Origin: an uncultured Erysipelotrichaceae bacterium
GTDB lineage: Bacteria > Bacillota_I > Bacilli_A > RF39 > UBA660
Reading direction: 5' to 3'
Length of the DNA: 64,000 nucleotides
Assembly: GCA_902780585.1 (NCBI GenBank)
Contig: CACZGA010000001.1
Coordinates: forward strand, 10,819-74,818
The notes under the pieces are model-generated. The model was not told the origin of the DNA. It made no database searches and worked only from the letters and a program-made list of their open reading frames with translations. A program made the translations under genes and the position numbers. Of this stretch, positions 31,001-61,791 are shown in pieces (within the stretch, counting starts at the first letter, position 1; each line of letters begins with the position of its first letter).

Positions 31001-33071
31001 ATAATTGTTCATTAGTTGCTGTTATACCCTTTTGTCCTCTAGGACTTATTACTTCAATGTTTCCAATACCTTTATTTTCAGTATTAAATAATCCTGGAAT
31101 TTCATTTAAAAGTAACATTACTTCCTATAATTCTATATTTCCACCTACTCCAGTCATAACTTGATTATTAGAATCAGAATTAACTACATCATCAGTTAAG
31201 AAAGTTCCTAATAAAGTAGTTCTATTTTTTCCAGAAAATTTAACTTTCTATGTAGGATTAAAATAATCGGAAATTCTAATTACATCAATTAATCCAGTAT
31301 ATTTATTTCTAAACATCAGTACTCCTAACTAATCAAATATAGAATCATATTTATCATCACTTATTAACTTCCATTTATTAGTGTTTGTATATTTTCCTAG
31401 TTTATCTTTAATCCAAAGAGGATTATCTTGACCAAAAGATGCTTTAGATGCAAGATTTAAAAAATCTTCTTCTGTCTCAGTATTTCCTAAAGATTTAAAA
31501 GTTTTTCTAATACTCGAAGTAGTATTTGGAACATAGTATTCTTTATATTCATATTTAGCTACTATTTTATTAAATATAATAGTTTCAGCTTCTTCTTTAG
31601 ATTTGTTACCACTAGCAACAAAATTATTTTTATTGTCTAATTTGAATTCCCAATTCTGAGTTATTTTATTCTTTTTAATACCTCCTGCTTCTTTTATCAT
31701 CTCAGCTATATCTTCTTTTGACATATTTTTTCCATTTTTCTTTATTTTAAATAAAGTTCTTGAATTTTCAGCAACTTTTGTTAATAAATCACCTGTTATA
31801 AAAGAATCTTTTTTAAAATTTCTTGGAAACACTTGTTCAAGATTATTTTCTATAGTGTTATATAAATTTCCACCTTTAGTTGCAGATGTATTAGATAATT
31901 CTTGAATTGGTTCATCCATTATAGATATTTCTGAAAATTGTACTTTTTTAGTATTATTATCAAATCCAAAGTTTTCAAATTTTAAAGGAATTATTCCTAA
32001 TCTCATTTCTTCATTAGGTTCAATTCCAATACTTTGTAATAATCTTCTATAAGCAGCCAACTAATATTTAAAGGTTAAAACTTTAGCAGGATCGTATTTA
32101 TCAAGTTCTTTAGAATAATTTGATTCAGTATAATCTTTAGGAGAACATTTAAAATCAAGTATTCCTATTCTACCATCTCTTGATACTACCATTAAGTCAA
32201 TTCTTCCTACTACTGGAAAAGCGTTAGTTCCATCCGATCCTTCTCCTATAACTTTCTTTTCAGAATAGATTACACAATCTTCTCCATAATCCTTTTTAAT
32301 ATTTTCATATATCTTAATAGCAGCTTTAATAGAAGATTTTTTTATTTCTGGAGTTATATATGGTCTAAATTTAGAATAATGAGACGTTTTTAATTTTTTT
32401 TCAAATTCTATATTTAACTAGTCTTCAGTAAGATTTTTAAATCTAATTCCTTCGTCAGTTTTAGATTTGAAGAAATCTGACATTATATTATGAATTAAAT
32501 CTCCACAAAGAGCTTGTTGTTTCCATACATCTGTCATTCTTTCTTCGATTTTATTTAAAGTATCTTCATCTGTAATCTTTTGGGGTATTCCGTTTATTTT
32601 AGGAAGTAGATCATCAACAAATGGTAATTGTGCCTATATTTTTGGATCATCATATTTACCATCTCTATATAACTGTTTCTAACCACCTGGGTTAGCTTCT
32701 GTTCCATCCCAGTAATTTTCAGCTACAAATACAGGAAATACAGGATTTCCATCAGGTCCTTTCATCTAATGAATAATATCAGTAATAGATCTATAATCTC
32801 CAGAAGCTTTAATAGGATCTAAATCTGACGGTTCTCCTTCTTCTGAAAGTTCAGTTATTTTATTTGATTTTTCTCCTTTCTCATATAAATCAGATACTTT
32901 CTCTAAAGCTTCATGAACTTGATTCTATTGTTCACTCCATTTAGAGTTTTCTGTTTTTTTAAAAGCAGCGTCTCCTAATTTATTTCTTAAATTATTATGG
33001 AATAATAAGTATTCATCTAACTCTAATTCTGAATTAAAAGTTAGTCCATTATATTTATATTTACAAGTCAT
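28044..33071 (-). CDS. late giant protein F (1675 aa, TAG read as sense) with an N-terminal RecB-family PD-(D/E)XK nuclease domain
   Basis: Track fragments 28368-28829, 29016-29198, 29400-30302, 30756-31118 and 31329-32060 share one frame, and all end at TAG. A triplet check of every gap found no in-frame TAA or TGA. The ATG at 33071 overlaps the stop of gene E (ATGA). The true stop is TAA 28044-28046. Confidence 0.85.
32040..32520 (-). other. PD-(D/E)XK nuclease motif set inside protein F
   Basis: CGDLIHNIM, GRIDLMVVSRDGRIGILDFKCS (D ... D-x-K) and TFKY[TAG]LAAYRRLL (QxxxY, with the Q encoded by TAG 32061-32063). Confidence 0.65.
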
Positions 33072-34132
33072 ATACAATTTTCAATTAATTCATTATTAGT
33101 TAATAACTCTTCCTTTACATTTGACATAATTCTGTGGATTGTTGCATCATCAATTGTTCCAGCAGAATCTATATCAAAATTAGAAGAATTTAATCTAGAA
33201 GCTAAGTTCAATAAAGAATTCTAAAATAAATTATCAATAGTTTTTACACTAACTTCTCCAAATATTATAGAATCTATATCTCTTTTTATATTATACATTA
33301 CATAATTCATTATATTTTTATCAGCTGAATCAAATAAACTTGGCTAATTAGTTAAAAATTTTGCTAATTCCTTTACAAAAATTTCTTCTTGAATATCAGA
33401 CATAGTTCTATTCGGATAAGATTTAGCCTAAAGTTCAAAATTTGGTAATTGCTAAACTTGTGATACTAATGAAAAATATAAATCTGGATTATTATATCTT
33501 ATAGATCCCAAAAATAAATGAAGTTGTTCATGTATAGGAGCATCTACTGTAGCTATGTCTGTATTTATATAGATATTTCCATTATATATAAATGCTTCAA
33601 GCTAGTGTACTGGTAAATTCTAAAATTCTGGATCTGAAGATAACTATTCGCTAGTTATCGGAATCATATTTATTCCATAATATTTCTATAATCTATCTAA
33701 GGCATCTTCGATTATTATAGAATTATTTGATTCGTCAAAATCTATATCTCTATTTACTTCTAAAATATCAGTGTACTCGGTAGGTCTATGTTTTATATCT
33801 ATTAAAACAGAATCTCCAATTTGAGTAAAATGTACTTCTAAATCTTTATATTCATTATTTATTTTTGAAGTAGCTTCCTCTATAGATTTAGAATTAGTTA
33901 GTTTTAATATATCCTAAGCTAGGACGTATTCACTATTTCCTTCTTTTCTAATTTTTAATTTATCTCTTAGATAAGGTTCTGAATTAGCTTCAGGAATCTC
34001 ATCTAATTCTGGCATTCTTCCGTTTTCTTCTTCAAAACCTCTAATAAAAGAATAAGAGGAAAATTCCGAAAGACCAGACATCTTTTTTAATGTCTGGCCT
34101 CTCTAAGAATTTTTTACTTCACAATAATTCAT
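33068..34132 (-). CDS. late protein E (354 aa) with an HExxH zincin-like motif
   Basis: Frame verified triplet by triplet. It has 10 in-frame TAGs and ATGA overlaps at both ends. The motif context is NGNIYINTDIATVDAPIHEQLHLFLGS. Confidence 0.8.
33518..33532 (-). other. HEQLH (HExxH) motif
   Basis: cat gaa caa ctt cat in the frame of protein E. Confidence 0.5.
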
Positions 34133-37100
34133 GGGCAATCTTTTACAGTATTATCATGTAATATAGCATCTAAATAATATTTAATTTTTTCTAAGTCATA
34201 TTTTCCATTTTTTCTTGGAAATATTTTAGAAGGAGTTATTTTTTCATCAGATGATTTTTCCTTAGCCATTTGTATTATCTAATTTACTGTATAGGACTTT
34301 TCTCCTTCATTTACTACTAAATCTTTTAATGGTTTATTAGTAATTTTATAATTTCCAACTTCCAATATATCTACTTCATTAGAATCATCAAAATTATTTT
34401 CTAATCCAATCATTACATATCCAGCATCGTTCATTTTCTTTATAAATGATTCTCCCTAAAAGTCATCTTCATTTCCTTCATCATTATCTGGATCTGGGTC
34501 AGGTGAATTGTCATCATTATAATCATTAGAATTATTATTTGATTCATTCTATTTTTTATATCCAAGATATGTTTTTTTATCTTCTGGATTAGTTACATAA
34601 ATCCAAGGAATTTTTAGATTAGGAGTTACTTCATAAGGTTTTAATAACGGAGCTATTGCTTTTATTATTTCATCTTGATTTTCTAAACTTACTGTATCAG
34701 ATTTTCCCCATTTTACTATAAAATCATTATAATCTTTTATAACATCTAATCTATTAGCTTTAATTAAATCTTCGAATAAAGAGGTTAAGGATAACTATCC
34801 TGGCTAATTATTATATGCTAATAAATTATAATAAAACATATATTCTATATATTTAGTAGGAAGTAATGATAAATCATACTTAGCTAAATCAAATTGAACT
34901 ACATCTGAAGGATTACTCATATCATTAGTTTTTATTTTAGCTAAATTTATAGAAGTATTATGGTCTGGATTATAATCATAACTTCTATATCCTAAATACT
35001 AAATAAATCTATTACTAGGATATTTTTTCTTTAATTCTGGGAATACTATATACTACATATATTCCTTAAATTTCTAATCGTCTTTCTCATTAATTCCTAA
35101 CTATATAGTCTATGGTCTACCTTCAGTATATACTAATTTTCCATTTACAATTTTAAATTTAGGAACATTTATAATTTTAATATTCTATTCTTGTAAAAAT
35201 TCCTAATGCATTTTTCTATATATAAATGGATTTATATTCCTTCTTATTTGAGATAAATGAGTAGTTTTTCTAGTATTCATCTAAGGAATTATAGAATCTT
35301 CTATTAATCTAGTAGCTCTGTATAACTATGAAGATTTAGAACCCATCCTTACTACAGCATTAGCTAACTTAAGGTAAGTTTGATAATTATCAACAGTATC
35401 AGCTACTTTTAGTATATTTGTAGTAGATTTTATTTTTCCATAAATACTTTTAGCAAGTTTATTATAATCTTTATCATATAAGAATGTATGTAAGTCTAAA
35501 TAATAAGATTCATTAGATTTGATTATTCCCTATTCTCTTAATTTATCATTATACTATTTGAGTTGGTCTAATTCTGTTAAAACTTCAGAATAATACTTTT
35601 CTAAACGAGTACTTCCAATTAAATCTAACCTATTAGAAATAATTTTTGAAAAATTAGTATAGAATGTTATCTAATCTTCTATTTTATTAGGTAATCCTTG
35701 ATTAAGTGCCATTAATGGACGTAACTAACTTTGTTCTTCAGCTATCTCCGCCAATCTAGATAATTGATTGATTATTTTATGTTGTTCTCCATCATAACCT
35801 TCTATTAAATCATTATCTATAACATTCTAATTACTTAACCAATTATATATACTTTTAATTTGTCCTAAATATCTTTTAGAAGAAAATATTAATCCTTGTA
35901 TAGCTTTTAACTAATCTTCAAATTTAGTATTCTAACTTTCATTAAATGATTTATCGAACTCTACTATTTTATCTAAACTTTGTTCTCCAAAATCTCTATA
36001 GTCTTTCCAAGCCTAGATTTCATCTAATACTTGTTGTTTCTATTGTTGTTTAGCTAATAAATCATTATAAGATTTTTCCTAGTCTTCTGTTCTATTTTCT
36101 ATTGAAGATAATTCATTTAAATAATTTTCAGCTCTTCTTGAGAATTTTCTATATTCTTTCTTGGTTTTAAGAGTAGCTATAATATTATTAATTAACTAAT
36201 CTTTATCTTGTTTTAAAATAGAACTTTCTGCATTAGGAGTTTGTAAGAATTTAAATATTGATAACATCTAATCTCTAAGATGCGGATTAGCAATTTTATT
36301 AGCTAAGTTACTTTTATTGATTTCCTCATTCTCTTGATAAATACCTAATTTAACAAATAAAGGTTTAAGAGTTTTTAATTGAGTATCAGTCAAATTTATA
36401 ACAGGAGGAACCTATAACTCTCTAATTATATCCAATATTCGAGTTCTGGCTTTCTATTCATTAAATACATTTCCATCAGATAATCTTGTTAACAACAATC
36501 CAGTATCAGATAATATTAAACGAGCTAGTTCTTCTACAGAATATCCTAAAATAACTCCAGCATTATATAAAGATAACATTTTAGGTCCACAATTTAACTA
36601 AGGTAATTTTGGATCTTTAGCATTATCAGTACTTAAAGAAAGTAATCCAGATTTACTAAGATATTCATCACGATACTAATTTACTTTTCTTAATGCTTTT
36701 AATACATCTTCATCTTTAATAGTATCTTCATTTCTAACTCGAACATTAGCCAACATATTTACTTCTCTTCCATTTATTATTACTCTAAAAAGTAAATCTT
36801 TCTAATCTTCAGCTGTTCCTTCTTCTAAAACTTGATAATTATATTGACTACTTATTTCAAAATTCTTTAACGAAGACGCTTCAATACCTACACCTTCCTT
36901 ACCTCCTAGTGTTAAAGTAAGCATTTTAATTTTAGAATATACAGAACCTCTATCGAATTTTTTAACGAATCCAGATAATTTCTAAAATTCAGGATGAGCT
37001 TTTTCATCATCCACAAGAGTTTTTATTTTATCCATCTAAGGATCAATAGGAGCTTGTGCCTAAATCCTATTAATAGGATCTTTAGAAATATCCTTAGCTT

Positions 37101-40100
37101 TTATAGAAATAAAATTATATAAACTATCAAGTAAAGTCTTTCCTTTTATTGATTTATTATGATAATTTACTAAAGATTTAATAAACATATGTGACTAATC
37201 CTAGGATTCGGGAATATATCCTAATTTATTGTATACATCAATTAATAATCCAAGATTAGGAGCTAGTTCTATAATATTATTCTAAATATATTTAGCATTT
37301 AGTTCAGAAGCTTTATATAGATTTTCTGATATTATTGAATCATTAAAATCTTTAAAATCAGATTCTATATCTACATCAACCAAATATCCATCTCCTGTTA
37401 ATCCTAATGCTTGTCTTGTAATAAAACTTATATCAAAATTAGATCTATTTACAATTCCTTTGAATCCTTCTAGCTCTTGTCTTACTCTTCTTAATAATAA
37501 ATACTATTCCAATTTAGAAGTATTGTTCCAATTATTTGCAGATATATTAATAGCATCATTATTGATATATTGAATAGTTAAAGAATTTCCAGAAGGAAGA
37601 GATATTATAGTCTATCCTTCATTTTTAGTAATAATAAAATCATTTCTTATTACATCATAAGGTCTTCTCTAGAACTTACTTTTATTTTTTAATAAAGCTA
37701 ATTCATTCTACTCTGATTTAGTTAATTCATTTTTATCCTATAACTATTTTAATCTATATCTTTCGTTAATAGTTAATGCTTGAATAATATTTAATTCTCT
37801 CTAATTAGGGAATGGAAGTTTTTTAGAAGCTAAGAATGTATCTTTAGATTTTAGACTAAAGAATGGACTCCAAACTACTAATTTTCCATGTCTAAATTTA
37901 AGTCCTAATAGGGATATTTTATCAATGTCATAGTCAGAACCTTGAAGCCATAACTAATCTCTAGATACATATGCAGAGTTTGTATTTTCAACACCAAATG
38001 CAGCAATGGTCATTGCCATAAATGATTGTTGTGATTGAGCAGGAGTTCTAGATACTATAGTTTCAAGAGATTGCAAGAATGACGTATGAACATCAATTCC
38101 TGACAAAATCATTCCTTTAAAGAATCTATTATTATTAATTAAATCATCACCAGTAATTCCAGAATTTAAATCTTTTTCAAGAGATTCAATTTGCTATTCT
38201 GTATATGTTTTATCATTAGAAATTAATTCTAAAAGATATTCTGTATCTTCTGGAAATTCTAATAATTCTTCTAAAGTTCCATCCTCTAATATTTCATCAA
38301 CATCTTCTCTAAATAAATCAAATAAATTTCCTTCAACTTCTTTTCCCGACTATATTGTAGAACTTAATAGATTATTAAACATTAACCTAACAGTCATGGA
38401 ATCTCTATCATTTCTATTAAATGGCTATTTTAATTTATTATTAATTCTTTGATTAGCTATTTTTAATAATATTTGAATTTTACTTCGAGCTGTCTTATTA
38501 ACACTTTCGTTAAGTTGTCTTAATAAATTAGCTTTATCAGAAGTTCCTTGTTCAGAAAATATTATTTTATTATAATTAAATTCATCAAGAAAATGTGTAA
38601 GATTATTAGAATAAATTATTTCAGTTCCTGTAGCTTTATGTTTATAAATTTGTATATCAGGAGTTATTAGTCCATGTTCATCAACTGTATAAGGTACAGA
38701 ATAAAGACGTTTTCCGAGTGGTGTTGTTCTATAAAGAACATCCCCATCAAGTTCAAAATTAGTTGGAAATTCTAATCTAACTTGTTGGTAGTCACTACTC
38801 ATTAAGTCTTCTGGAGGAAAACCTAAATAAATATGATTACCATCTAATGTTTTTAATTCTAAATCAAATACTTCCTAATCAGTAATTTTAGATTTCCAAT
38901 TTTCTAATTGTCTCTTAATAAAGAAATTCTAATCGTTTTCAATATCTTTAACCTAATCTCCTTCTTTTAATCCAAATTCTGTTTTATAAATCATAGGTAA
39001 TATAATTTCAAATGGATTTACCTATGTTTTAGATTTATCAACTTTTAATACCTATCCATTAATAGTTACTGTAGTTTCTATTCCAGAACTTAAAGCATTC
39101 AAATCTTTCTAGAATTGAACGGTTAAATAATCCTTTCCATTAACATTATTTTCAGTTATTTCTGTTGGAAGCTATAATAATTGTAATTCTTCTTGTTGAG
39201 GAATTGATAATAACTAAATATATTCTGGATGTTTAAAAGCGTTATATGCTTTTTGAAAATTATTTAATTTATCCCAATTTCTCTGTAAATTTGCCTAAAA
39301 AGCAATTTGTTCTTCAGAAGTTTTATTATTAGGAATTAAGAATCCATCTTTTTTATCATCCCAATCCTATAAAGCTCTTACAGTATCAAGTTGCCAAGTA
39401 TTATATTTTGTTCCATTAGCAACAAATGTTAATTGATAGGTTGCTAAATCTCTACCTAATGGAAGTATGACTTCTTTTCCATTTATATTTTTATATTCTA
39501 CTACTGTTTCGTAGAAGTTTTCTCCGTTAAGAATTCTCTACTCTAATTCATAGAATTTTTTAGGAGAATCTACTATAAATAACTCATTTGTTATAGTATT
39601 TCTATAGTTATAACCAAGTTTAATATCAGCAGGATACAAACGGGACTATATTGCTTTTTTCTTATTCTCTTCTTCTAAAGCTAATAGTTCATTCATATGA
39701 GTATGATAATACCCAGAAAGATGTCCGTTTATTAAAGTCATTCTTCTATTTGATGGATTTAATACTTCCATTCCTCCTTCAAATTTAAGTCTAATTGATT
39801 TTTCTAATTGTGATGCTAAACTTGACATAATTTTAGCAAATACAGCAGGATGACTTATAGGAAATTTCTATATTATCTCACTTTTATCAAAAGAAGAACT
39901 TTCTGTATCAAGTATAGAAGCAGCTAAAGCATTCATCATATCTCCATCTTGATTAGATACTTTAAGAAGAGTTTTATAAATACTATTGTTTATAGCTTCA
40001 TCTATAAGATCAGGATTATCAGATTCCATAGCTTGTAATACATTACCTGATATTATTTCTGCTATAGATGCTAATGCTTCATAACATTGTTTTCCTTCAT

Positions 40101-43100: not shown

Positions 43101-44973
43101 CATCTAGACTATTAAATACTGAAATGAATCCTGGAGTAAATTCTATATCTAATACTTCATTGATTAAAGGAATAAAATAATTATAATCTGGTTTCTATAT
43201 TATTTTATTATCTTTATCAGTAATAGTAATAGACATATCAGGAGATATTACTATATTATATTTCTCCATAGAAATAGTAATTCCTTTAGTATCATTATCT
43301 ATAATTTCAAAATTTGTAAATTTTGTAATATTATTATTTGTACTTCCTAAAGGATTTACTTTATTAAATTTTCCTTCTAAACCTCTTTGTAATGCTTTAA
43401 GTCTAGTATCGTTAGTTTTTGTACCTAAATTAACAACTTTTACTCCATTTTCTGGATCTTTTAAATATTCAAGTTGCTATTTATTTTCAATATTTATAAA
43501 TATTCCTGTAATATATTGATAAATTGACTAATTGTTTGGATTGAATCCTAATCCATTTCTCTAATTCATTGAAAATATAGAGTCTGTTCTAGGAGAAAAA
43601 ATTTGATAATACAGTGAAGTTAAAGTTTCGTTTGTTTTTACATGTTTTGAAAATATGGCTGAATAAGGATTATAATCAGTTTCACCTAAATATATTGGCT
43701 ATGTTAATCGAAATAAAATAGGCATTAATAGCTAAGGATACATTTTAGCAGAAGCTAACAACTATTTAAAATTCTTTCCATAAACAAATTCATTTAAAAG
43801 TTCTTCTAAATAGTTTCTTCCATATAAATGTTCATATTCATTCTAAATAACAGAAATTATTTCTGCTCCAAATTTTGCAGATGAAAATTTATTATTCATA
43901 AAAAAGTCTCCATCTTGAACATCTAAAGTTTTCATTAGATTACCGATGGCAACTTTAATGTTTGAAAATTCTAAATTTTCCTATTTAAAGTTTCCAGATT
44001 TATCAACTACTTTCAAAGATTTTAAAAATAATACTCCTAGAGTTCCTAATTCTTCTGTTTCATCAACATCTTCATCTTCATCTCTCCAAGTATTTATTAC
44101 TTTGTCAGCAGTTTTTATAGTATATTTATCACTATTATCTAGATTATATTCTCCATAATTTTTTATTGCTATAGCCTTTCCAAAACTTAAAGTCAATAAA
44201 TCATCAAAATGTTTTAATGTTACGAATGCTTGCCAAGCGTTTAATAATTTTTGTCCATTTTCGTTTAAAGTATCAATTTCAGGAATTCGAGCTATTAAAC
44301 TTGAAGGAAATATACCTTTATTTTCATTAAATATATTATTAAATACATAATTCATAGCTTCGTTTAAATTATGATTAAATAAATATTCAAATCGTTCAGA
44401 GGCTCTTTCTCCAAGATTTTCAAGTATTATTTCTTTAATCTAATCTTTCAAATATTCTCTATATTCCTAAAATGACTAATTTAAATCTTCTACGGAATTA
44501 ATTAATGTTGCAGAATCATTTTCTCCTTGAATAAACATTCTTCTCACAACATTATTTCCAAAATTCCTTAAGAATACTAATTTACTAAAAGAACTTATTC
44601 TAAAATAATTATCTAAGAATCTCTATCTAATTTGAGATTTTTCAGAAGTAGGAGAGAGGGTATCCAATTTGGATCCCTCATCTTCCTACGGAATATTCTA
44701 TAAACCTTCAAATATTGAATCAATTGCAGACCTTATACTGTTAGCAATTTGTTCATCGATATTTGATATTTCGTATATCTAAATTTCATCATCTAGATAT
44801 TCTCTTACAGCATCTTCAAAATCAGAAGAAACATTTTTATATAGTTTTTTTAATTCTAATAAACCTTGTTCAAAAGCAGAAATTGGATCGCTTTCTTTAC
44901 TAATAGAATTAATTAAAAGATCCATTTCATCTAAAAACTCTTGCTAGTCTATCAATCTACAACTGTTTCCCAT
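34129..44973 (-). CDS. late giant protein D (3614 aa); candidate virion-packaged RNA polymerase of the crAss-like single-chain DxDxD type
   Basis: A single frame runs from ATG 44973 to TGA 34129-34131. I checked all 181 sequence rows for in-frame TAA or TGA and found none. My hand count is about 96 in-frame TAGs. Contains GSDYDIDK at residues 2345-2352. Confidence 0.85.
37921..37935 (-). other. DYDID (DxDxD) motif, possible catalytic metal-binding loop of a double-psi beta-barrel RNA polymerase
   Basis: gac tat gac att gat in the frame of protein D, context AYVSRDQLWLQGSDYDIDKISLLGLKF. Compare NADFDGD of beta-prime and DYDGD of QDE-1-type polymerases. Confidence 0.4.
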
Positions 44974-44974
44974 A

Positions 44975-50900: not shown

Positions 50901-53900
50901 TCAAGTTTCTAAGCATTAAAACTATTTCTTTTTTCTTCAATAGACTAGAGTAAATCTTTATCTTCAGTTAATTCATCCTATTCTAATTCTAAAATATCTA
51001 ATATTTTCTATTTATCATCATCAGAAAGGTTATTAAATTCTTCTATAGTCTATGGTAATTCAATTCCAATTGCTTCTTCCCATGTTTTACTAAGATTTTC
51101 AAGCTATATTTTAAAATTATCATATATAGTTTTATCAAGATTATCTTTAGAAGCTTCTAATAATGCAGTCCATATTCCAGCTCGGGTTTCTGCAGGAATA
51201 AATTCTTCTGTATCCTATACAATATTTTTTGATCTAGATAACTATACTTCTTTTTCATTTAAAAATATATTTTCTAGTTCTCTGAGTGGATTTATTTCCT
51301 TGTCAGTAAAATATGTTTCTTCATATTTCTTTAAAAGATTAGAAAAAGCTTGTTGATTATGTTTAAATACCTGATAATTTCTATGTATCATATCTCTACG
51401 AGTTAATGAACTTTCAGCCCAATCTTCTCTAAGCTTCTTCATTCTTTCTTCAGAAATTTCATTAAATTTTTTTCCTTCTACTGCCTCAGCCCAAATATCA
51501 AATCCAGTTAAAGCATACGCAGATGAAATTGGAACAGTCATTTCAAATAAAGATTCTGCTATAAACTCATTAGCCATAGTACCATCTTTATACATAGTTA
51601 ATTTTTTATCCAACTTCTTTTTCTATTCATTTAATTCTTTTAATTCTTCTTCGTTCTATTTAGTCCAATTCTTTTTAGCTTCTCTATTCTATTCATCTGT
51701 TCCTACTTGGCCATTTTTCTACTTTTCTAAAGTATTTATTTTCTAACTAACATCAACATACTCAGATAATAGATTATTAAATTCATTAGTATATACTCCT
51801 AAAACATTACTATTTAATAATGAATAATATTTAAGTTGTTTTCTAACTAATCCATCAAGTAATTCATTATCAGAAATTTTAAATTTCATTCCTTCTGAAT
51901 TTAAAATTTCTTCTACCATATTTACTTGTTCTAACAGTCTTTGTTTTATAGCATAATCCTAACTTTCTTCATAAGTATTAGCTGGTTTATATATTTTTTC
52001 TCCATCAGAAGTTTCTAATTGCTAAGTTGATAAAGAAGTACTACCGAACGTCATTTTATTAATAGTATCTTTATATTCCTAAGCTTGTCCATTCTATACT
52101 AAATTTACAAGTTTTATAAATGCATCTGAATTAGACCCAGGATTATTGACAGATTCTACTAATTCTCTCTATGCAACTCTAGCTTGTCTATAGCCAGGAA
52201 GTCCTGTAGCTAATCCTCCTCCTACAAGACCTCCTATTGCAGACATAGAATATCTAGTTGCCATGTTTTCCCAAACATCAGTAAATTTAGTATCATCACC
52301 TCTTAATGTATTAACAATATTAAAAATACTTTTAGCTGCATCAGCAAGTAATTCTTCAGAAGTTTCTTCTGTTGCTTCACTTAACATTCCAGAAACAGTC
52401 ATTTTACTTGTATTAGTAAGCACTGAATCAGAATAATCCTATTTAGCTAATTGTTTTCCATAATCAAATAACTTCTAAAACCATTTTTTCTTTACTTCTG
52501 GATCTTTATTTAGATTTTCACCTGATTCTCTTGTAATTTTAGCTAACGAACGTGCTATAGTTTGATTTTGAAATTTTTCCATTTTTAATTCTGGAAGAAT
52601 CCATTTACCAATATCACTTCTTAAAATCTACCATTCTCCTAATGAATAACCTAAAGCAAACAAAGCAGCCTCCGTATCAGATGCCCCTTGTTGTTTAGCT
52701 TCTCCATAAGAATCTGCTGTAGTAATTCCAGTCATATAAGCCATAGATATATTTTTACTTATGTTCTATCCTGCTTTTAGACGTTCATTTAACTTAGTTT
52801 CTGCTGTTGCAAAGCGTATTGTTTTTTCAGTATTTAATTTAGAAAATAATTCGGCCTAAGTTTTTGCTGGTCTTACTAAATCTACATTAAAAGGTTCACT
52901 TTCAGCTAATTTATTTATTAATTCTTTTCTTGCAGTATTAGCATCTGTTCCTTCTCCTATTAATTTAGGATTAACTCTTGAAAACAATGCATTTCCATAT
53001 TTAAATATCCAACGCTATTCTGCAAGTTGTGTAAATACATCAGAGATAAGTTTTAATCCAGTTTCCATTGTCCAAGGGTTAGCCTATATATTAGCTTCTT
53101 CTGAACCCTAAGTATAATCAGAAGTAGAAAATGAAAAAGTTTTATTTAATGCTTCTATATAGGACATCGCCTCATTATCATTACCAGTAAATATTTTACC
53201 TATAGTTGGGAAAAGTTGCATTAAACTAAGTCCTACTCTTGTTCCTATATAAATTGGAGAAACATAAGGAACGAAAGCTGGAGCAATTTGTGCAACAGCT
53301 CTACTTAAACTTCCAAAGGTAGATTTTTCTCTATCATCAGAATCGAAGAAATCATATTTATTCCATTTAGATCCATCTTCTGTAAGTGTATCAAATCCTG
53401 ATAAAACTTCTCTTCCGTATATATCTCTTCCTCCAAGAGTTTCATAATAATAAGTACCAGTAGTTGGATCTATTTTCTTTTCTCCTTTATGATAAACTAT
53501 TTCATCTTTATTGTTAGTAGGATTTCCATTTTCATCAGCATCAAAATCCCATTGTGCAAGAACTTTAGGATTTATAAAATTATCTAACCAATTAGAATTA
53601 GGACTTTCTATCCATTTTCCTGTTTTATAATCATAAACTGGTTTAGATTCTGCTATTTCTCTTAAAGATTTAGTTGGATCTTCTTTTATTCCAAAATTAA
53701 TAAATCCTTCTTGCTATCTTAAAGGATTAGCTACTTTTTTTATATTAAATTCAGGATTAATTGGATTTCCTTGTTCATCTACAGAAGAACTTTTTAATGT
53801 TGAAGGAGCAAATATATCATCTCTAAAAAATATATTATCAGAGTCTGTTAAATCCGATAAAGTATTAAACTAATGTAATGCCTATTCATAAGCATTATTG

Positions 53901-54088
53901 AATTTTTTTTCATCAAATTTTCCATCTGTCTAGAAAATAGGAAGATTTTGAATTGTCTGAGAATTTTTATATTTTTCCTTATCTTGTATCATAGTATTCG
54001 AAGAATTTAGTCCAACCAACTAAAAATCTTTAGGATTAAAAGTTGGATTGGACAATAATTCTAAGAAATAATCATGTTCTTTCATCAT
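44975..54088 (-). CDS. late giant protein C (3037 aa) with a central SF1 helicase/ATPase core and Gly-rich hydrophobic segments
   Basis: Track fragments from 47069-47641 up to 52169-52423 share one frame, and all end at TAG. All gaps checked triplet by triplet. ATGATG at 54088 overlaps the stop of gene B. The stop is TAA 44975-44977, 1 nt before the ATG of gene D. Confidence 0.85.
48518..49627 (-). other. SF1 (RecD/Pif1-like) helicase core inside protein C, about residues 1488-1857
   Basis: Walker A GDPGSGKS (49604-49627), Walker B LVFFDEVS, motif III AAGDFN[TAG]L, motif V SAGASQGQEG and motif VI YTALSRAKQG (48518-48541), all in the canonical order. Confidence 0.75.
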
Positions 54089-57000
54089 AATACTAATTCA
54101 TTCTTTTTATAAGTAGATATTTTCTACTTATCATATCCTTTTTGTTTCAATTCTAAATCTGTAGCATCAGTCATTGAAATTTTCTATCCGCTACTAATAG
54201 CTCCTGCTACTAAACTATTTTTTATTGGAACAAATACTGTTCCTTGATATAACTCTTCTTTACCTCCAAATATGGGTAATCCACTATCTAATGAATATTT
54301 CTTATCATTAAATTTATTTTGAATTATATTTTCATAAAATTCTCTAGTTTGTTCATCAGCAGGTTCTAATATATCTAAAATTACTTTTTTATCATTAAGT
54401 GCTTTTTCTGTAGTAGTTACCTAAAATGCTGCAAATCTATTCCACGACTACTTATTTAGATTCCCTTGATTATCATATTTAGGAGGTAACTATAATTTAG
54501 AACAAATTTCATTTACTTTCTACCAATTCTATGAAGAATCTTCTATTCCTTCTATTAATAATCGATCATCTAACTATTCTAATTTTTTTAACATTTCAAA
54601 ATCAGGAGTATTTTTATCTCCTATTTTAGTTGGTAAATCTACTCCTACTACTTCTCCATTGTTTAATATTATATAATTATAAGCAGTTGGATTTAATGTA
54701 GATCCTCCAAGTGTAGCTTTATTCCAATCTAAAACTCCTTTTAATGTAGAAGTTGATGCTTCCTACATAGTAATTCCTGCTCCCATATTTTCTCCACTAT
54801 GTTTCTAAAATTCAGAATATCTAGCTTTTACGTTTATTGCATAGTTACTTCCAGTATTTAATTCTATATTTGTATTATATCCTTTTCCTGTAATTAATGC
54901 AGATGCTGCATCTAATTTTAATCCTTCTGAATTTTCTTTTGAATTTCCATTAGTATCTTTAGCAGCTTTTCCAGTTAAAGGAGAGAAACTAACAGTCTAA
55001 GAATCATCTATTTGAGAAGATAAGAATGTAGGAATAAGATTTTTTGCTCCGCCATGTATATCTAACACTGCTTTATAATTTTCTGGCAACATTTGCGTAA
55101 TATAATTTATAGCTGCCTACTTCTAAGCTAATTGATTTTTAGTTTCAGTAGTTGTTTTATAATACCCATCTGGAGCTCCTTGTAACAATTTTATTCCTTG
55201 TTTAATCTAATTAGATTCCACTTCAGACATTCCATCAAGTTTAAGTTCACTACTACCTAATTTTCCAGCCATTGATTTAACCTGTTCAGCAATTTTCAAA
55301 AGTCCTACACCATTAGCAACAACATTTTGCATAATATAATCACCTTTATCAAATGCTAAATCAGGTCTATATTCTCTAAGTGTTAATAGTTGAGAATTAG
55401 TTAAAGGAATATGTTTAGAAGTATCAATTTTACTAACAGTTTCAATTTTTCCTGTTTCTTTATTCTATACAGCATAATTTCCAACAGAATCAACTGCTAT
55501 TTCATTTAATGCTCCATTAGCAGCAGCTACTTTATAAGCTTCATCATAAATTTCTTTACTTCTACTAACATTATTTAATTGCTACATAGCTCTCAAATAC
55601 ATACTAGCAATCTACTAAGAATTTAATTCTTTTCCAAATATTTCAGCTTCTTGTAAAACACCGCTTAATGTAGAGTAAATACTACTTACATCAACTTTAA
55701 CTCCTTTAAGATCTTTAAACATCTTAATTAAATCAAGTACATCTTTTGATGAAGTATCTTTACTAGATGATGTAGCTTTTGAGGATGTTCCTATAGAATC
55801 TTGACTAACTGTTCTAGCAGTTTCACTTACTCCAACAGCAGGAGTATATATAGTAAACGGAGCTAAGAACTGTCCTCCAACTTGATATTTTCTTCTTCTA
55901 GTCCCATCTGGATGTGGAGCTAATGGCTATATTTTTCTTTCTTTTTCAGGATAACGTCTACACATCTTTCTAAAGTGGTCTACAACATCTTTAGTAGATT
56001 TATATAGAAGTTTATCGTCCTTTTTATATGTTATTTTAGAACCAGATTTTACAAATAATAATGGAAATGAACTAGAATATTTTCTATTAATATCTCTGTA
56101 ATTTCTTAAATTTTCTAACTATATTCTTGTTTGTACTTTTTTAAGTTTTTCTTTAGCTTCTTTAACTCTTGGGTCACTTTCATTCCACAATCCATTTTCT
56201 CCACGAAGAGCATATAATTCATCAGTTGCTTTTTTTAATTCTGGATCATTTTCTAACTAAGTTTGATAAGTAAGTAAATCAATCTATTTATTATAAGCAT
56301 TATCTTCTTCCATCTACTATCTCTTACGAGTTTCGATTTCCTTAAGATAATTATCAATAGATGACCACTATGCGGAATGTTTCTAAGCCAATAAAGTATG
56401 TTTTTTTTCATTAGCATCATTTAATGAAGCTAAATTAGTATTGGCTACTTCTGTTGCTCTTTGGGTATTAGCCCATTGATGTTGATTAGATTCATCAGAA
56501 GTTCTACGAATTTCTTGATTATCAGCTAAGTCACCTTGTGCTCTGAGTTCATCTCCAACTCTTCTGGCTTCTTGCATATAAGCCATCTATCTATCAGCAT
56601 CAGAAGTAAATGGTTGAGCAGCTTTTGTCTATCCAGCAGCTGCTCTTCTGTAATATGCTTGTTTAGTAGCCTCATCACCAACAACTTGTCTATGTGTATA
56701 ATAAGGCTAAATTAAAGTAGGTCTAATTCCCTTTAAAGCTTCATCATATACTCTAGCATTATTAATAAGATTTCCAGCAAGTCTTCCTGTAGATAATAAT
56801 CCAGGAATCATTCCTCTTAGTCTTCCTAATAAATCATTTCCTTGTGGAGTTTCTTTTTTATCTCCTGTTGGACCACTTCCTATTTCTGTACTTCCTCCAG
56901 TTTGTTGAGGCTAAGGATTTAGTTTTTGTAGAGTTTCTGAAGGAGGATTATTAGGAGATTCCTATAACGGAAGTCTTTTTAATTTATAATATCCATCTGA

Positions 57001-57555
57001 ATCATCTAAATATGTATCCCATCCTCTTTTATTGAGTTCTTGTTTCCAATTTCTAAATTCTTGTGAATTTTCATCCCAATCCCCTTTTCTACCAAGAAGT
57101 CTTCTCCAATCAGTTACACTACTATATAATCCATCTGCAACATATTTCTAACTTGGATTATCTCCAGATAATCTTTTTCCTGGAGCAGTAAAGACATTAT
57201 TATTATAGGCATTAGCAATACCTAGATTATTATAATTAAAATAATCCTCTTCGTTTATCTAAGTACCCTAATTATTGGAATTTCCTAAATAATCATTTTG
57301 GTACTTTTTAACACTTTCATTAGAATAGGCTTTTTTCTTCCAAGCCTCATTTGCTCCTCCAGCTGCATTATAAATTTGTGAATGAGAATGTTGCATATCA
57401 TTCAACCAATATCCATAATCATTTTTTTCACCATATTTAGATAACATATCTAATATATGTTGTGACTATTTACTATGAACATATTTATACCAATCTGAAG
57501 TTGTACGACCTATTCCAGTATTTCCCCCATATTGAAATCTAGGAATAATTTTCAT
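54085..57555 (-). CDS. late large protein B (1156 aa), function unknown
   Basis: Every row from 57555 to 54085 was translated: 35 in-frame TAGs and no TAA or TGA. ATGA overlaps at both ends. Includes track fragment 56383-56586. Confidence 0.85.
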
Positions 57556-60332
57556 TTCTTTATAAATTCTTTATATTGTTGTATTCTTTGTTTATCTAAT
57601 CTTCCACCTTGTTTAAGCCAACCTTTTCGTTTAAAATCTTGAAGAATTTTTCCCAATTCAGTATTTCCTATTTTTACAGGAGAATTAGGTTTAATATTTC
57701 TTCTATTATTATTTATTATATCCCTTATTTTAGTCTATAATTCTTTCTATTGAGATTTTAAATAATTTCCTTCAATATTTCCCTTATAAATTAGATTAAA
57801 AGTTCCATCAGACTATTCAACAATTTGTAACTAGTGTCCATCAATGTTAGCACTTCCACTCTTTAATTTATTTTTAGAAAATTCTCCTCTAGATAATTTT
57901 TCTTCTCTATTTTTTACATATTCGTTATATTTTTGAATTCTTTCTTTAGACTACTTACTTATTTCTGAATTTTTTTCATTATTTCCAGAAGTTTCATTAG
58001 CTTTAGGAGTTTCAGACTATTGTTCTGTTGTTGGTTTTACTGAATTATTTCCTAAATATTTATCATATCTTCTAATATCACGATTACTTCCATTGAAGAA
58101 TTTTTTTAACCATGTATTATTATGTTCTGACAAATATTGCTCAAATTCTTCATCTGACTTTAATGCTGAAGAATTTCTTGTAGTAGTTGTTGGAGTTCCA
58201 AATATTTCAGAATTTCCTTTTCCTCTGTATCTATTTAAATTTTCTCTACTCCAAGTTTTAGTACTAGTAGATTTAGACTATATTTTATATCCTTCAGGAA
58301 TTTCTATTTCTAAATCTTTAGCTTTAGCTTCTAAATCCTCTGCTTTAGTTTTACTTAAAATTTTCTATTTTTCTTTATCTATAGGAATTTCTATAGTTTC
58401 TACTTTGCCATCTTCTCCAGTTTTCTACACTTTTAAAGTAGGAGCTGTTTCTGTAGAAGAAGTTGTTTTTGCTTTAGTTCTAGTAATTCCTGATTTATTT
58501 AATAAAGAATTAGAAGTTTCGATTCCTCTAGCTTTCATAGCAGATCTTTCAACTCTATTTCCTCTATTCAATTGATGATGTCCTAATCCTCCAATAAAGA
58601 AATATGCTAAATCCTAATAATCCTTAAGAGATAAATCTTCTCCTTTTTTAATTTTTTCTACAGTATCAAGAGCTCCTGGAGCATTAGCTGCCATAGCATA
58701 AGTAGATCCAGCTCTTCCAGCAAGTCTTATATATTTTTCTATTTTTGGAAGATATCCAGCTAGCTTAGAAGCAGCCCAACCTCCTTTTATCCATCCACCT
58801 GCTATTGGAATAGTACTCAATAATCCTAGACCGTGATCTAAGGCAGCCCAACCGGTATCTCCCCAAGTCCATCCTTCAGGATCAGATGCCCTATTATAAT
58901 CACGAATTCCAGCAGCTATTTGAGATAGTCCAGCAGAGCTAAATCCTTCTGGATCAACAGCTGCTCCTAAATCAAATAATAATGCAGCTACTTCTCTCTA
59001 TTCAGCAGGAGTAAATCCTCCTTCTGTAGAGTTTAAATAATTTTGTTGCTATTTATTTTTTAAAACATCAGGATTATTCTAATCTAAAATATCCTAAAAA
59101 TTTACTCCATTATTCTATTGTCCTTTAGCATAAGGTTTAACAATTTGATTTGTTAAAGAATCCCAATAAATTCCATTTAATTCTCTGATTTTCTTAAATC
59201 TATTAGGATTACTTCCAAATCTAGGACCGAATGTAGCTAGTTCTTCTTTAGAAAGATTTTCTAAAGCATTATTTCTTTGTGCAAGTTTAAATGTTCCTAC
59301 TAATTGTGATAATTCATCGCCATTCCATGAATCTTTAGCAGCTAACTAATTTAAATAATCTAAATTACTATTTTCAGGAGAAAGTGGACTTCCAGTTAAT
59401 CCTTTACCATACCATTTTAATCCTCCAATAAGATTAGCATTATATGCTTTTCTTGCTGCTTCTGCTTTAGCATTAGCAGCCTATATTTTAGCATCTTTCT
59501 AAGCTTGTAATCCTCTATAGTAATTACCATAAGTTATTGGATTTCCTTGTTCATCAGTAGTATAAACTTCACCAGTTCTATTGTTAAACCAATCCTTATA
59601 GTTTATTCCAAGTTTATTTAAGGCAGGTGTATCATCATCAAGTTCTGGACTTCTCAATGCTCTTACAGCTTCTCCTAATCTAGATTTAAAGTCATCAGCA
59701 TCCTTAAAAGGACTATCTTTCCAATTATATTCTTCTGCATTAAAATCTCTGTCTATACCTTCTAAATACTTAGCAAGAGCCTCTTTTCTTTTATCTGTTC
59801 CAACAGCTCCCGTTTTTTCATTACGAACATCATCTAATGTATTCCAACGATTCATATCAAAGGTTTTTCCATCAAATGCTTGTCCGCCAAATTCTTTATC
59901 TGATATATTTTTATAAAGAGTGCTTAAAAATGAATTGCTATCGAACGTAGGTAATTTAGCAATTCTTTCTTCTTCCTCCTTCTTTTTCTTCTCTTCAATA
60001 GATTTTTTAGTTGGTAATGACTCAGCTAATCTTCCAATAAAACTAGCTGCATCTTGCCAACCTCTTCTTGTATTTTTATCATATGTATTAATATCAAATG
60101 GATCTCCACCAAATGTAGTATAATACATAGATTCTCCAGTATCTGGATTTGTATATTTTCTAGTCCCTAAAATTCCTCTATTTAGAGCTAATTCTATAAC
60201 TGCATCAAAAGCACCTCTACGAGCAGCTGACCAGGGTTGGGTACTAGAATAAGCTTTATAATCTCCTATAGCTTTTAACAAATCCTATTTACTAACCTAT
60301 TCATCACCAAAATTAATGTATTCTTCTTCCAT
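57552..60332 (-). CDS. late large protein A (926 aa) with a Gly-rich hydrophobic segment (GLGLLSTIPIAGGWIKGGWAASKLAG); possible ejection or membrane-active protein
   Basis: ATG 60332 to TGA 57552-57554. Joins track fragments 59499-60281 and 58614-58820. Fully translated by hand with 20 in-frame TAGs. Confidence 0.85.
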
Positions 60333-60338
60333 ACGCTT

Positions 60339-60379
60339 AAAATATAAAAGGGTAACACGACTTGCGTGTCGTATTACCC
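60339..60379 (-). terminator. rho-independent terminator (or attenuator) between the Ala/Pro/Gln-rich mini-gene and gene A
   Basis: The minus-strand RNA GGGUAAUACGAC-ACGCAA-GUCGUGUUACCC forms a 12-bp stem (one G-U pair) and is followed by UUUUAUAUUUU. It ends only 7 nt before the ATG of gene A. Confidence 0.7.
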
Positions 60380-60386
60380 TTGTAAA

Positions 60387-60789: not shown

Positions 60790-61062
60790 TTATTCTTCCT
60801 TATTAATAGTCTTAGACCATAGTCCAGAAGGAATTACATCTACTCCATATAATCCAAGACATCCAATAAATACTACATTAGCAAATTCTGGAATATCTTT
60901 TTCTTGAATGTATGCAGCAATTAATATTCCAAAACAAACAAATGCTCCTAATAAAGCAATTATTCTTTTAGAACTAATTCCACCACTATTTCTTAAAAAT
61001 ATAGTACGCCAATCAAATTTTTGTAACTACTTTAATTCTGAATTACGATATCTTTTATCCAT
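60790..61062 (-). CDS. 90-aa two-TM membrane protein; holin-like candidate
   Basis: TM segments IIALLGAFVCFGILIAAYI and FANVVFIGCLGLYGV. One TAG at codon 12. Its start overlaps the transglycosylase stop by 8 nt. Confidence 0.6.
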
Positions 61063-61789
61063 AATCTTTTAATGCTCTTTCTATACTATATCCACCAAGA
61101 GAAAAATTCTTTTTTCCATCGAGAACCATTCTCATAGATTTTGGATACCACCAACCTAATGCAGCTATTTGTGCTTTATTATATCCATTTTGAAATAATT
61201 TTTCTGCTTCAGTAGTACTAAGAATATGTCTTAAATATTTTGTAGCAGCTCTTACTTGTTCTTTCGGATCATTTAAAAATGATTCTTTATCATAATTACT
61301 ATAAAGTTTTCTTGTACTGTCTATAAACTAGAAATATCCAGATGCAGTAGAAGAACTACTCTTAGCTTTTTGTTTAAAATTAGATTCTCTTTTTGCTTGT
61401 AATAGTATAAGACTTTTCATTTCTGGATCTTTTAAATCTTCAAATCCTTTTTCATTAGATACTTCATCTAGTAATTTATTAAAATTTTCTGGACCCTATA
61501 TTGTAGTAAAATTATTAGATTTAACTTCTTTATTAATTTCTCCGTTGTCCTCCTTAGGAGCTTTTGTCATTTCCATATTCTGTTGTTCTTTAGGTTTTTC
61601 TATTTGAGAATTAAGTACTAAATCTTGAGGCCATAAAAGTCCATTTCCGTTCTAATCCTATATAAATTTAAATCCATCTGGAACTTTAGTTCTACCAAAT
61701 ACAGGATCTTCCATATAATCAAGTTCTTTCTAAGTATAGGAAGGTTTATAGATAGTATTTTCAAATAATTTACTATAATCAACTGCCAT
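61055..61789 (-). CDS. lytic transglycosylase (SLT domain) protein, 244 aa
   Basis: Complete hand translation with 5 in-frame TAGs. Contains LQAKRESNF (catalytic E-S), TASGYF[TAG]FIDST (GLMQ-type motif) and NGYNKAQIAALGWWYP. Confidence 0.8.
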
Positions 61790-61791
61790 AA

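What the first reader, a model, noticed from the sequence alone, without database searches (positions are those of the whole stretch)
32061..61330. TAG sits on invariant glutamine positions of three unrelated domain families
Three cases support Gln. (1) Lytic transglycosylase: AKRESNF...TASGYF[TAG]FIDST puts TAG (61328-61330) at the Q of the family-1 GLMQ motif. (2) SF1 helicase motif III: AAGDFN[TAG]L puts TAG (49193-49195) at the Q of GDxxQL. (3) RecB-family nuclease: TFKY[TAG]LAAY puts TAG (32061-32063) at the Q of QxxxY. Three independent conserved-column hits point to Gln (table 15) rather than Trp, Ser, Leu, Tyr or Glu.
Basis: partly seen in the sequence, partly recalled or inferred. Interest (0 to 1): 0.7.

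Follow-up and report, generated by a model that had tools for sequence, protein, structure and literature searches.

The report
Phage late genes read TAG as glutamine

Summary
It is not new.

- **Coding layout.** The minus-strand genes at 28044-64000 carry 277 in-frame TAGs, 2.3% of codons, and all end in TAA or TGA. The plus-strand early genes at 294-27394 are almost free of TAG.
- **The three sites.** All sit on invariant glutamine columns. At 32061-63 (QxxxY of a PD-(D/E)XK nuclease), 29 of 29 standard-code relatives have CAA or CAG. At 49193-95 (GDxxQ of a Walker A/B ATPase), 52 of 52 do. At 61328-30 (SLT domain), the TAG aligns with the Q of GWFQ in phiKZ gp144.
- **All TAG columns.** In standard-code relatives only Gln is enriched at 227 TAG columns (z = 11, 0 of 5000 permutations). 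At 45-90% identity, TAG columns show the same substitution spectrum as CAA/CAG columns. In a 97%-identical relative, 11 of 13 TAG changes are to or from CAA/CAG.
- **Context.** The phage is crAss-like: a 174-kb contig, a giant protein with a DxDxD motif and a muzzle protein next door. Late-gene TAG-to-Gln recoding in this group was published in 2021-2022 and confirmed by mass spectrometry. The public protein collection already translates this contig with TAG = Q.
- **Gap.** No tRNA(CUA) was found in the regions I could reach.

The parts
28044..33080 (-). Late gene of 1678 codons with an N-terminal PD-(D/E)XK (RecB/Cas4-like) nuclease domain. It has 21 in-frame TAGs and a TAA stop.
   Evidence: Searches give the ORF and TAG count. 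Pfam PDDEXK_1 scores 23.3 bits at aa 187-348. PF12705 is precomputed on 30 of 32 homologues. The motifs GRID, ILDFK and QLAAY are invariant in alignment A1.
32061..32063 (-). TAG at the Q of the QxxxY nuclease motif (TFKY-TAG-LAAY).
   Evidence: 29 of 29 standard-code loci have CAG or CAA. Recoded loci have 22 TAG, 9 CAA and 12 CAG. The Tyr at +4 is invariant.
33068..34150 (-). Late gene of 360 codons, function unknown, with 10 in-frame TAGs.
   Evidence: no Pfam hit.
34129..45012 (-). Giant late gene of 3627 codons with a DxDxD (DYDID) motif at 37921-37935, RNA-polymerase-like. It has 96 in-frame TAGs.
   Evidence: It has no Pfam family. Its most conserved segment matches the standard-code relative MT835470.1.
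37954..37956 (-). TAG seven codons upstream of the DYDID motif, a fourth invariant-Gln site.
   Evidence: ORF index 2352 is Gln in 23 of 23 unique standard-code cells. Coordinates were derived.
44975..54097 (-). Giant late gene of 3040 codons with a central SF1 (RecD/AAA_30-like) ATPase core. It has 73 in-frame TAGs.
   Evidence: Visible motifs are Walker A GDPGSGKS, Walker B FFDEVS, GDFN-TAG-L, and then SQGQEG and YTALSRA.
49193..49195 (-). TAG at the Q of helicase motif III (GDxxQ).
   Evidence: 52 of 52 standard-code loci have CAA or CAG. Recoded loci have 15 CAA/CAG and 6 TAG. Searches agree.
54085..57570 (-). Late gene of 1161 codons with 35 in-frame TAGs.
57552..60386 (-). Late gene of 944 codons with 20 in-frame TAGs.
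61055..61807 (-). Late gene of 250 codons with a C-terminal SLT lytic transglycosylase domain. It has 5 in-frame TAGs.
   Evidence: Pfam SLT scores 38.2 bits. A family profile matches phiKZ gp144 (PDB 3BKH) at E = 1.4e-4.
61328..61330 (-). TAG at the Q of the G-[LWY]-[MF]-Q transglycosylase motif (ASGYF-TAG-FIDST).
   Evidence: It aligns to the Q of GWFQF in gp144. L078 and L118 have CAA there, and L158-L161 have TAG.
61792..62463 (-). Late gene of 223 codons, DUF192, with 5 in-frame TAGs.
   Evidence: PF02643, 68 bits.
62411..63715 (-). Late gene of 434 codons with 6 in-frame TAGs.
294..27394 (+). Early and replication block that is compatible with the standard code. It encodes primase, exonucleases, NrdD/NrdG, a phosphoesterase, dUTPase, DNA ligase, a sigma-70 factor, DNA polymerase and ThyX.
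   Evidence: Searches give the annotation. One search finds 8 in-frame TAGs in 8206 codons, against 556 TAG trinucleotides over all frames.
2965..3519 (+). The one early-block gene that needs TAG read-through. It is resolvase-like and has 3 in-frame TAGs.
   Evidence: phrog_244, E = 1.7e-6. Relative L164 has Gln codons at two of the three sites.

Best explanation
The window is part of a ~174-kb crAss-like (Crassvirales, Zeta-group-like) phage genome with a block-wise dual code.

The early/replication genes on the + strand avoid TAG as a sense codon. They can therefore be translated by the unmodified host machinery. The late genes on the - strand use TAG as a frequent glutamine codon: 277 TAG against 300 CAA and 22 CAG. 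These genes include the nuclease-containing protein, the giant RNA-polymerase-like and helicase-containing proteins, the transglycosylase and neighbouring virion genes. They terminate only at TAA or TGA.

**Shown here:** TAG is a sense codon in these genes, and the amino acid it stands for is Gln.

**Inferred from published work on the same phage group, not observed here:** an amber-suppressor tRNA(CUA), encoded elsewhere in the genome and charged by the host GlnRS, is made early in infection. Full-length late proteins can then be produced only after the switch. This would time virion and lysis functions and make late genes unreadable to an unmodified host.
For: **ORF structure.** Reading through TAG, but not TGA, restores ORFs of 3627, 3040, 1678 and 1161 aa.

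**Near-identical relative.** L007 is 97% identical at the protein level. Of the aligned codon pairs with TAG on at least one side, 82 are TAG in both and 13 differ. Of the 13, 11 are exchanges with CAA or CAG.

**Standard-code relatives, read from DNA.**
- In 83 loci, Gln makes up 14.4% of 3279 unique cells at the window's TAG positions. That is 3.9-fold enrichment, and no other residue exceeds 1.3-fold.
- A column permutation gives z = 11.0 and 0 of 5000 for Gln, with all other residues at |z| <= 2.1.
- The log-likelihood is best for Q by 22 nats.

**45-90% identity class.**
- TAG columns: Q 31.8% + TAG 16.3%, E 14.6%, K 9.1%.
- CAA/CAG columns: Q 46.2% + TAG 10.0%, E 11.4%, K 8.9%.
- Q is favoured by 99 nats over E.

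**Invariant sites.** 29/29, 52/52 and 23/23 Gln in standard-code relatives. The SLT site aligns to the Q of phiKZ gp144.

**Early block.** 8 in-frame TAGs in 8206 codons. Three of them lie 2-8 codons before the end, which is consistent with TAG acting as a stop there.

**Phage identity.**
- crAss_MUZ Pfam domains on the neighbouring gene.
- DnaB_C, DEAD/ResIII and AAA_24 genes upstream.
- A DYDID motif.
- A contig of 174,238 bp.

**Literature.**
- PMC7886860: the Zeta group has 145-192 kb genomes, with TAG-to-Gln or TGA-to-Trp recoding in late genes only.
- PMC9523058: mass-spectrometry proof of TAG = Gln in two crAss-like phages.
- bioRxiv 10.1101/2021.08.26.457843: the code-switch timing model.
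Against: No tRNA(CUA) was found in any region I could reach:
- the 64-kb window;
- the 10 kb upstream or about 8 kb downstream;
- 89 of the 176 kb of the closest IMG/VR relative, which carries 24 tRNAs including Gln(UUG).

The suppressor step is therefore unverified for this lineage.

Standard-code relatives are only about 30% identical to the window, and many are near-duplicates. Gln is the plurality, not the majority, at TAG columns: 16 of 49 strongly conserved columns, against 50% for canonical Q columns.

No peptide evidence exists for this genome.
Confidence: 0.9

Rival explanations
1. TAG is a sense codon here, but it is read without a canonical phage-encoded tRNA(CUA). Candidates are the phage's own or the host's tRNA-Gln through near-cognate or modified-anticodon reading, combined with interference with release factor 1, or a non-canonical tRNA-like RNA that standard tools miss.
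For: - No tRNA(CUA) was found in the window, its flanks, or 51% of the closest relative's genome, despite 24 other tRNAs including Gln(UUG).
- Two degenerate tRNA-like hits and a Y-RNA-like hit lie beside that relative's tRNA cluster.
- Borges et al. detected TAG suppressors in only 40% of TAG-recoded phage genomes.
Against:
- A more distant relative, L236, has a normal tRNA(CUA) in the equivalent tRNA cluster.
- The published crAss-like cases do carry suppressor tRNAs.
- The two tRNA-like hits lack an acceptor stem or a normal anticodon loop, and neither has a CUA anticodon.
Confidence: 0.1
2. TAG encodes a different amino acid, such as Glu, Lys, Tyr, Trp, Leu, Ser or pyrrolysine.
For: - Glu and Lys are the next most frequent residues at TAG columns.
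- ARAGORN labels CUA-anticodon tRNAs as 'Pyl'.
Against: - The E and K frequencies at TAG columns equal those at canonical Gln columns, so they are simply the normal substitution neighbours of Gln.
- The likelihood gap is 22 to 99 nats.
- Every invariant column is Gln.
- Trp, Tyr, Leu and Ser are depleted or neutral.
- TAG interchanges with CAA/CAG in a 97%-identical relative.
Confidence: 0.02
3. The TAGs are real stops, and the late region consists of fragmented pseudogenes, assembly errors, or genes made only by rare read-through.
For: Under table 11 the region breaks into ORFs of 741 aa or less.
Against: - There are 277 TAGs, all in one frame per gene, with no TAA or TGA interruptions across ORFs of up to 3627 codons.
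- Homology is continuous across TAG positions with full-length standard-code homologues.
- 82 of 89 TAGs are conserved as TAG in an independent assembly.
- The same proteins occur on several independent contigs.
Confidence: 0.01

Closest known systems
Genetic code 15 (TAG to Gln) in the late genes of crAss-like phages: Yutin et al. 2021 (PMC7886860), Borges et al. (bioRxiv 10.1101/2021.08.26.457843), Peters et al. 2022 (PMC9523058)
   Same: - TAG is reassigned to Gln only in the late structural and transcription block.
- The early and replication block is compatible with the standard code.
- The genome has low GC content (27.5%).
- Standard-code and recoded members are close relatives within one family.
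   Different: Nothing essential differs. No suppressor tRNA has been located for this lineage so far, and one early-block resolvase-like gene also carries TAG codons. Membership of the Zeta group is inferred from size and gene content, not from a TerL or MCP phylogeny.
TGA-to-Trp (code 4) recoded relatives within the same crAss-like group
   Same: The same block-wise recoding logic applies. Several relatives fetched here carry tRNA(UCA) in the homologous tRNA cluster.
   Different: In this window TGA is a genuine stop. Half of the late genes end in TGA, and reading through TGA does not extend ORFs.
Lak megaphages and other TAG-recoded gut phages, such as phAss-1 (PMC10607447)
   Same: TAG is recoded in late genes of AT-rich gut phages whose hosts use the standard code.
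   Different: These are unrelated lineages. The window carries crAss-specific markers: a muzzle protein next door and a giant DxDxD RNA-polymerase-like protein.

Membership tests
Genetic code 15 (TAG = Gln) usage | In-frame TAGs inside conserved genes, with read-through restoring full-length ORFs while TAA and TGA still terminate. | tested here: met
   277 TAGs in 12 late ORFs, 11 of them complete, and every terminal stop present is TAA or TGA.
Genetic code 15 (TAG = Gln) usage | TAG columns align with Gln in homologues that use the standard code. | tested here: met
   These are codon-level comparisons on DNA, so they are independent of database translations.
Genetic code 15 (TAG = Gln) usage | A phage-encoded amber-suppressor tRNA(CUA). 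| tested here: inconclusive
   None was found in the window, its flanks, or 89 of 176 kb of the closest relative.
Genetic code 15 (TAG = Gln) usage | Peptides with Gln at TAG positions. | not testable with these tools
   This needs metaproteomics of the source sample. It has been shown for other crAss-like phages (PMC9523058).
Crassvirales / crAss-like phages (Zeta-group-like) | A transcription block of giant proteins, one of which has the RNA-polymerase DxDxD motif. | tested here: met
   DYDIDK at 37918-37935 in the 3627-codon gene. The gene order is shared with more than 150 IMG/VR contigs of 90-190 kb.
Crassvirales / crAss-like phages (Zeta-group-like) | crAss structural signature genes (muzzle protein, MCP, portal, TerL). 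| tested here: inconclusive
   PF25731 and PF25729 (crAss_MUZ) hit an 1806-aa protein about 3 kb beyond the window end on a contig that carries the identical SLT protein. MCP, portal and TerL lie outside the reachable sequence, and no phylogeny was made.
Crassvirales / crAss-like phages (Zeta-group-like) | A replication block with DnaG primase, DnaB and SNF2 helicases and an AAA ATPase, and a genome of 145-192 kb. | tested here: met
   Primase is phrog_12622. DnaB_C, DEAD/ResIII/Helicase_C and AAA_24 lie upstream, and the contig is 174,238 bp.
SLT lytic transglycosylase (PF01464) | A profile score above the cut-off, a catalytic Glu-Ser motif, and the G-x-x-Q motif. | tested here: met
   The score is 38.2 bits against a cut-off of 21.3. 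RESNF and ASGYF[TAG]F align to ESAF and TGWFQF of phiKZ gp144.
SF1 helicase, RecD/AAA_30-like | A profile score above the cut-off. | tested here: not met
   For the window protein the best hit is AAA_19, at 16.1 bits against a cut-off of 25.1. Many full-length homologues carry precomputed PF13604 or PF13245.
SF1 helicase, RecD/AAA_30-like | Motifs I (GxxGxGKS/T), II (DE), III (GDxxQ), and V/VI (QGxE, YTAxSRA). | tested here: met
   All are present and invariant or nearly so across 120 homologues. Helicase activity itself was not tested.
PD-(D/E)XK nuclease, PDDEXK_1 (PF12705) | A profile score above the cut-off and the motifs D, (D/E)xK and QxxxY. | tested here: met
   The score is 23.3 bits against a cut-off of 22, which is marginal. 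PF12705 is on 30 of 32 homologues. D292, D306, K308, Q337 and Y341 are invariant.

The most novel reading that the evidence does not exclude
This lineage may decode TAG as Gln without a canonical phage tRNA(CUA). In the reachable half of the closest relative's genome there are 24 tRNAs, including tRNA-Gln(UUG), but no amber suppressor. Two acceptor-less or short-looped tRNA-like elements and a Y-RNA-like element lie beside the tRNA cluster. If the complete genome also lacks a tRNA(CUA), the switch would have to rest on an unconventional decoder or on manipulation of host tRNA-Gln and RF1.
Probability: 0.08. Interest if true: 0.55.

Novelty: already known. Interest (0 to 1): 0.15.

Why it matters
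For annotation it matters a great deal. Under the standard bacterial code about 36 kb of this window breaks into meaningless fragments. With TAG = Gln it yields the phage's giant virion and transcription proteins.

Scientifically it is another instance of a published phenomenon. It adds codon-level support for Gln from hundreds of columns, and it shows standard-code, TAG-recoded and partly recoded members side by side in one family. It opens no new question by itself.

Tried and rejected
- **Protein-level tallies.** They looked decisive: Q in 120 of 120, 32 of 32 and 58 of 58 homologues. They are partly circular. The public protein collection translates recoded contigs with TAG = Q: P0128, P0160 and P0191 do not translate back under table 11, and L007 has 21 TAGs where P0128 has Q. 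I replaced these tallies with codon-level counts on DNA.
- **Megablast against GenBank phages.** No match. tblastn found only three records.
- **The search for related loci with a single helicase fragment.** Nothing found.
- **PHROGs on late proteins.** Almost no hits.
- **PDB sequence searches.** Nothing for the helicase region. For the nuclease family profile, only a weak TFIIS-like match and no nuclease.
- **Amino-acid composition of early versus late genes.** Not decisive.
- **Reaching the rest of the source contig.** A guessed table-11 fragment was not on record. Of ten candidate fragments, only one was in the collection, and only on short contigs.
- **Walking through the closest IMG/VR relative to find a tRNA(CUA)**. 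This found two tRNA clusters but no amber suppressor. The extra Rfam tRNA hit at L170 9476-9557 is tRNA-Tyr(GUA).
- **Exact search for the anticodon arm of the L236 tRNA(CUA).** No contig of this family was hit.
- **Pfam on the 3614-aa protein.** No family.
Full report
**1. The observation**

The three codons are present as CTA on the + strand, which is TAG on the - strand, at 32061-63, 49193-95 and 61328-30. The window is AT-rich, with 27.5% GC.

With the three standard stops the longest ORF is 741 aa. Reading TAG as sense, and only TAG, gives ORFs of 3627, 3040, 1678, 1161 and 944 codons. Reading through TGA has no effect.

All of these long ORFs lie on the - strand between 28044 and 64000. 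Together they hold 277 in-frame TAGs in 12,045 codons (2.3%), against 300 CAA and 22 CAG. Each ends in TAA or TGA.

The + strand genes at 294-27394 encode primase, exonucleases, NrdD/NrdG, dUTPase, DNA ligase, a sigma-70 factor, DNA polymerase and ThyX. After their first ATG they contain 8 in-frame TAGs in 8206 codons. The same stretch has 556 TAG trinucleotides over all frames.

**2. The three domains**

- **Transglycosylase.** Pfam places an SLT domain (38.2 bits) on the 250-codon gene.
- **Nuclease.** Pfam places a PDDEXK_1 domain (23.3 bits, just above the cut-off) at residues 187-348 of the 1678-codon gene.
- **Helicase.** The helicase region of the 3040-codon gene stays below Pfam cut-offs. 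Its homologues carry AAA_30 and AAA_19. Motifs I, II and III, together with QGxE and YTAxSRA, are visible and conserved.

**3. A trap: the database already assumes TAG = Q**

Homologue searches returned many full-length proteins with Q at every TAG column. A 96%-identical homologue, P0128, had Q at all 21 positions.

Its DNA (L007) has TAG at those positions, and the look-up reports that the gene does not translate to the protein. The same is true of the window's own SLT protein (P0160) and of P0191.

The collection's gene caller therefore already applies TAG = Q to such contigs. Protein-level tallies are partly circular, so I used DNA from this point on.

**4. Codon-level tests**

I fetched about 150 related loci from IMG/VR and two from GenBank. 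I classified each by its own in-frame TAG density. There were 83 standard-code loci, 66 recoded and 3 mixed.

Site by site:

| Site | Standard-code loci | Recoded loci |
|---|---|---|
| 32061-63 | 24 CAG + 5 CAA | 22 TAG, 9 CAA, 12 CAG (nothing else) |
| 49193-95 | 52 of 52 GDxxQ (25 CAA, 27 CAG) | 15 CAA/CAG, 6 TAG |
| 61328-30 | none available | CAA in L078 and L118, TAG in L158-L161 |

L158-L160 carry the identical SLT protein, so they are the same or a near-identical phage. For the third site, a family profile aligns the column with the Q of GWFQF in phiKZ gp144 (PDB 3BKH, E = 1.4e-4).

A fourth invariant site turned up at 37954-56. It lies seven codons before the DYDID motif of the giant RNA-polymerase-like protein and is Gln in 23 of 23 unique standard-code cells.

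**5. All TAG columns together**

In standard-code relatives, with duplicates removed by local sequence context:
- Gln fills 14.4% of 3279 cells at TAG positions, a 3.9-fold enrichment. No other residue exceeds 1.3-fold.
- Per column, the mean Gln fraction is 0.123 against 0.034 ± 0.008 for random columns. That gives z = 11.0 and 0 of 5000 permutations. Every other residue has |z| <= 2.1.
- A likelihood built from the substitution frequencies of the same alignments favours Q over K by 22 nats.

In the 45-90% identity class, Q is favoured over E by 99 nats. There TAG columns behave like canonical Gln columns:

| Window codon | Q in relative | TAG in relative | E | K |
|---|---|---|---|---|
| TAG | 31.8% | 16.3% | 14.6% | 9.1% |
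| CAA/CAG | 46.2% | 10.0% | 11.4% | 8.9% |

In the 97%-identical relative L007, 82 aligned TAGs are shared. Of the 13 positions where only one genome has TAG, 11 are exchanges with CAA or CAG.

**6. What the element is**

The source contig is ENA ERZ28613548 scaffold_58, 174,238 bp. Three lines of evidence point to a crAss-like phage:
- A contig with the identical SLT protein has a crAss muzzle-protein gene (Pfam crAss_MUZ) just beyond the window end.
- Upstream lie DnaB, DEAD/ResIII-type helicase and AAA_24 genes.
- The giant protein carries the DxDxD motif.

This fits the Zeta group of crAss-like phages described by Yutin et al. 2021. That group has genomes of 145-192 kb and a rich replication module. 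Different branches use TAG-to-Gln, TGA-to-Trp or the standard code, and reassignment is seen only in late genes.

Peters et al. 2022 showed Gln at TAG by mass spectrometry in two crAss-like phages. Borges et al. proposed that the code switch times late and lysis genes. Group membership here is inferred, because no TerL phylogeny was possible.

**7. Mechanism**

Shown: TAG is a sense codon for Gln in the late block, TAA and TGA terminate, and the early block is readable by the standard code.

Three early genes have a TAG 2-8 codons before their TAA or TGA. One of these (TAG at 8019-21) is followed directly by the next gene's ATG at 8023. This suggests TAG still acts as a stop there.

Inferred: an early-expressed suppressor tRNA(CUA) charged by the host GlnRS. 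I could not find it in any of these places:
- the window;
- about 10 kb upstream or about 8 kb downstream;
- 89 of the 176 kb of the closest IMG/VR relative, which holds 24 tRNAs including Gln(UUG).

A more distant relative does have a tRNA(CUA) in the equivalent cluster. Borges et al. found suppressors in only 40% of TAG-recoded genomes. The absence in half a genome is therefore weak evidence.

**8. Verdict**

The finding is ordinary for this phage group and is already handled by public gene callers, so its interest is low.

Noticed in passing
window 2965-3519 (+): This is the only early-block gene that needs TAG read-through. It is a resolvase-like ORF (phrog_244, RusA-like Holliday junction resolvase, E = 1.7e-6) with 3 in-frame TAGs. 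The closest IMG/VR relative has ordinary Gln codons at two of them (IYIQCKATQTT). A junction resolvase is usually a late function, so its translation may be gated by the code switch even though it sits among early genes.
   Followed up: partly
window 8019-8021, 10356-10619, 24128-24460 (+): Three early genes have a TAG 2-8 codons before their TAA or TGA. At 8019-8021 the TAG is followed one base later by the next gene's ATG (8023). TAG probably still works as a stop for early genes, so the codon would have two meanings in one genome depending on the stage of infection.
   Followed up: partly
window 18321-19034 (+): This is a complete sigma-70 family factor (regions 2, 3 and 4; phrog_351, E = 2.5e-61) in the early block of a phage that also carries its own giant RNA-polymerase-like protein.
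   Followed up: no
window 28044-33080 (-), about residues 870-925 of the protein: A profile of this protein family gives a weak match (19.5 bits, E about 1e-3) to the central domain of eukaryotic transcription elongation factor TFIIS/TCEA1. This is intriguing beside an RNA-polymerase-like giant protein, but it may be chance.
   Followed up: no
loci L059, L079, L080 and L023 (IMG/VR relatives): In these 'mixed' relatives one giant late gene has no in-frame TAG while neighbouring late genes have several. They may be snapshots of gain or loss of recoding. The family also contains fully standard-code members (about 35% GC) and TAG-recoded members (26-31% GC).
   Followed up: no
L171 8330-8403, L181 8208-8301, L184 7044-7134, L194 19359-19432, L197 19615-19688: Several relatives carry a tRNA with a UCA (opal-suppressor) anticodon in the homologous tRNA cluster. 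L171 comes from a contig whose late genes are TAG-recoded, not TGA-recoded.
   Followed up: no
L196 2113-2231, 2808-2880, 3416-3473: A Y-RNA-like (YrlA) hit (39 bits, below the family cut-off) lies next to the tRNA cluster of the closest relative. Beside it are two tRNA-like elements, one without a proper acceptor stem and one without a normal anticodon loop. ARAGORN does not call either of them.
   Followed up: partly
L194 2038-2432, L236 5294-5653: Relatives encode a tmRNA inside their tRNA clusters.
   Followed up: no
window 27800-28010: Two strong hairpins followed by T-runs sit in the 650-bp gap where the early (+) and late (-) gene blocks converge. They are probably terminators.
   Followed up: no
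public protein collection (P0128, P0160, P0191): The collection's proteins for recoded contigs are already translated with TAG = Q. Residue tallies made on those proteins are therefore circular unless they are checked against DNA.
   Followed up: yes
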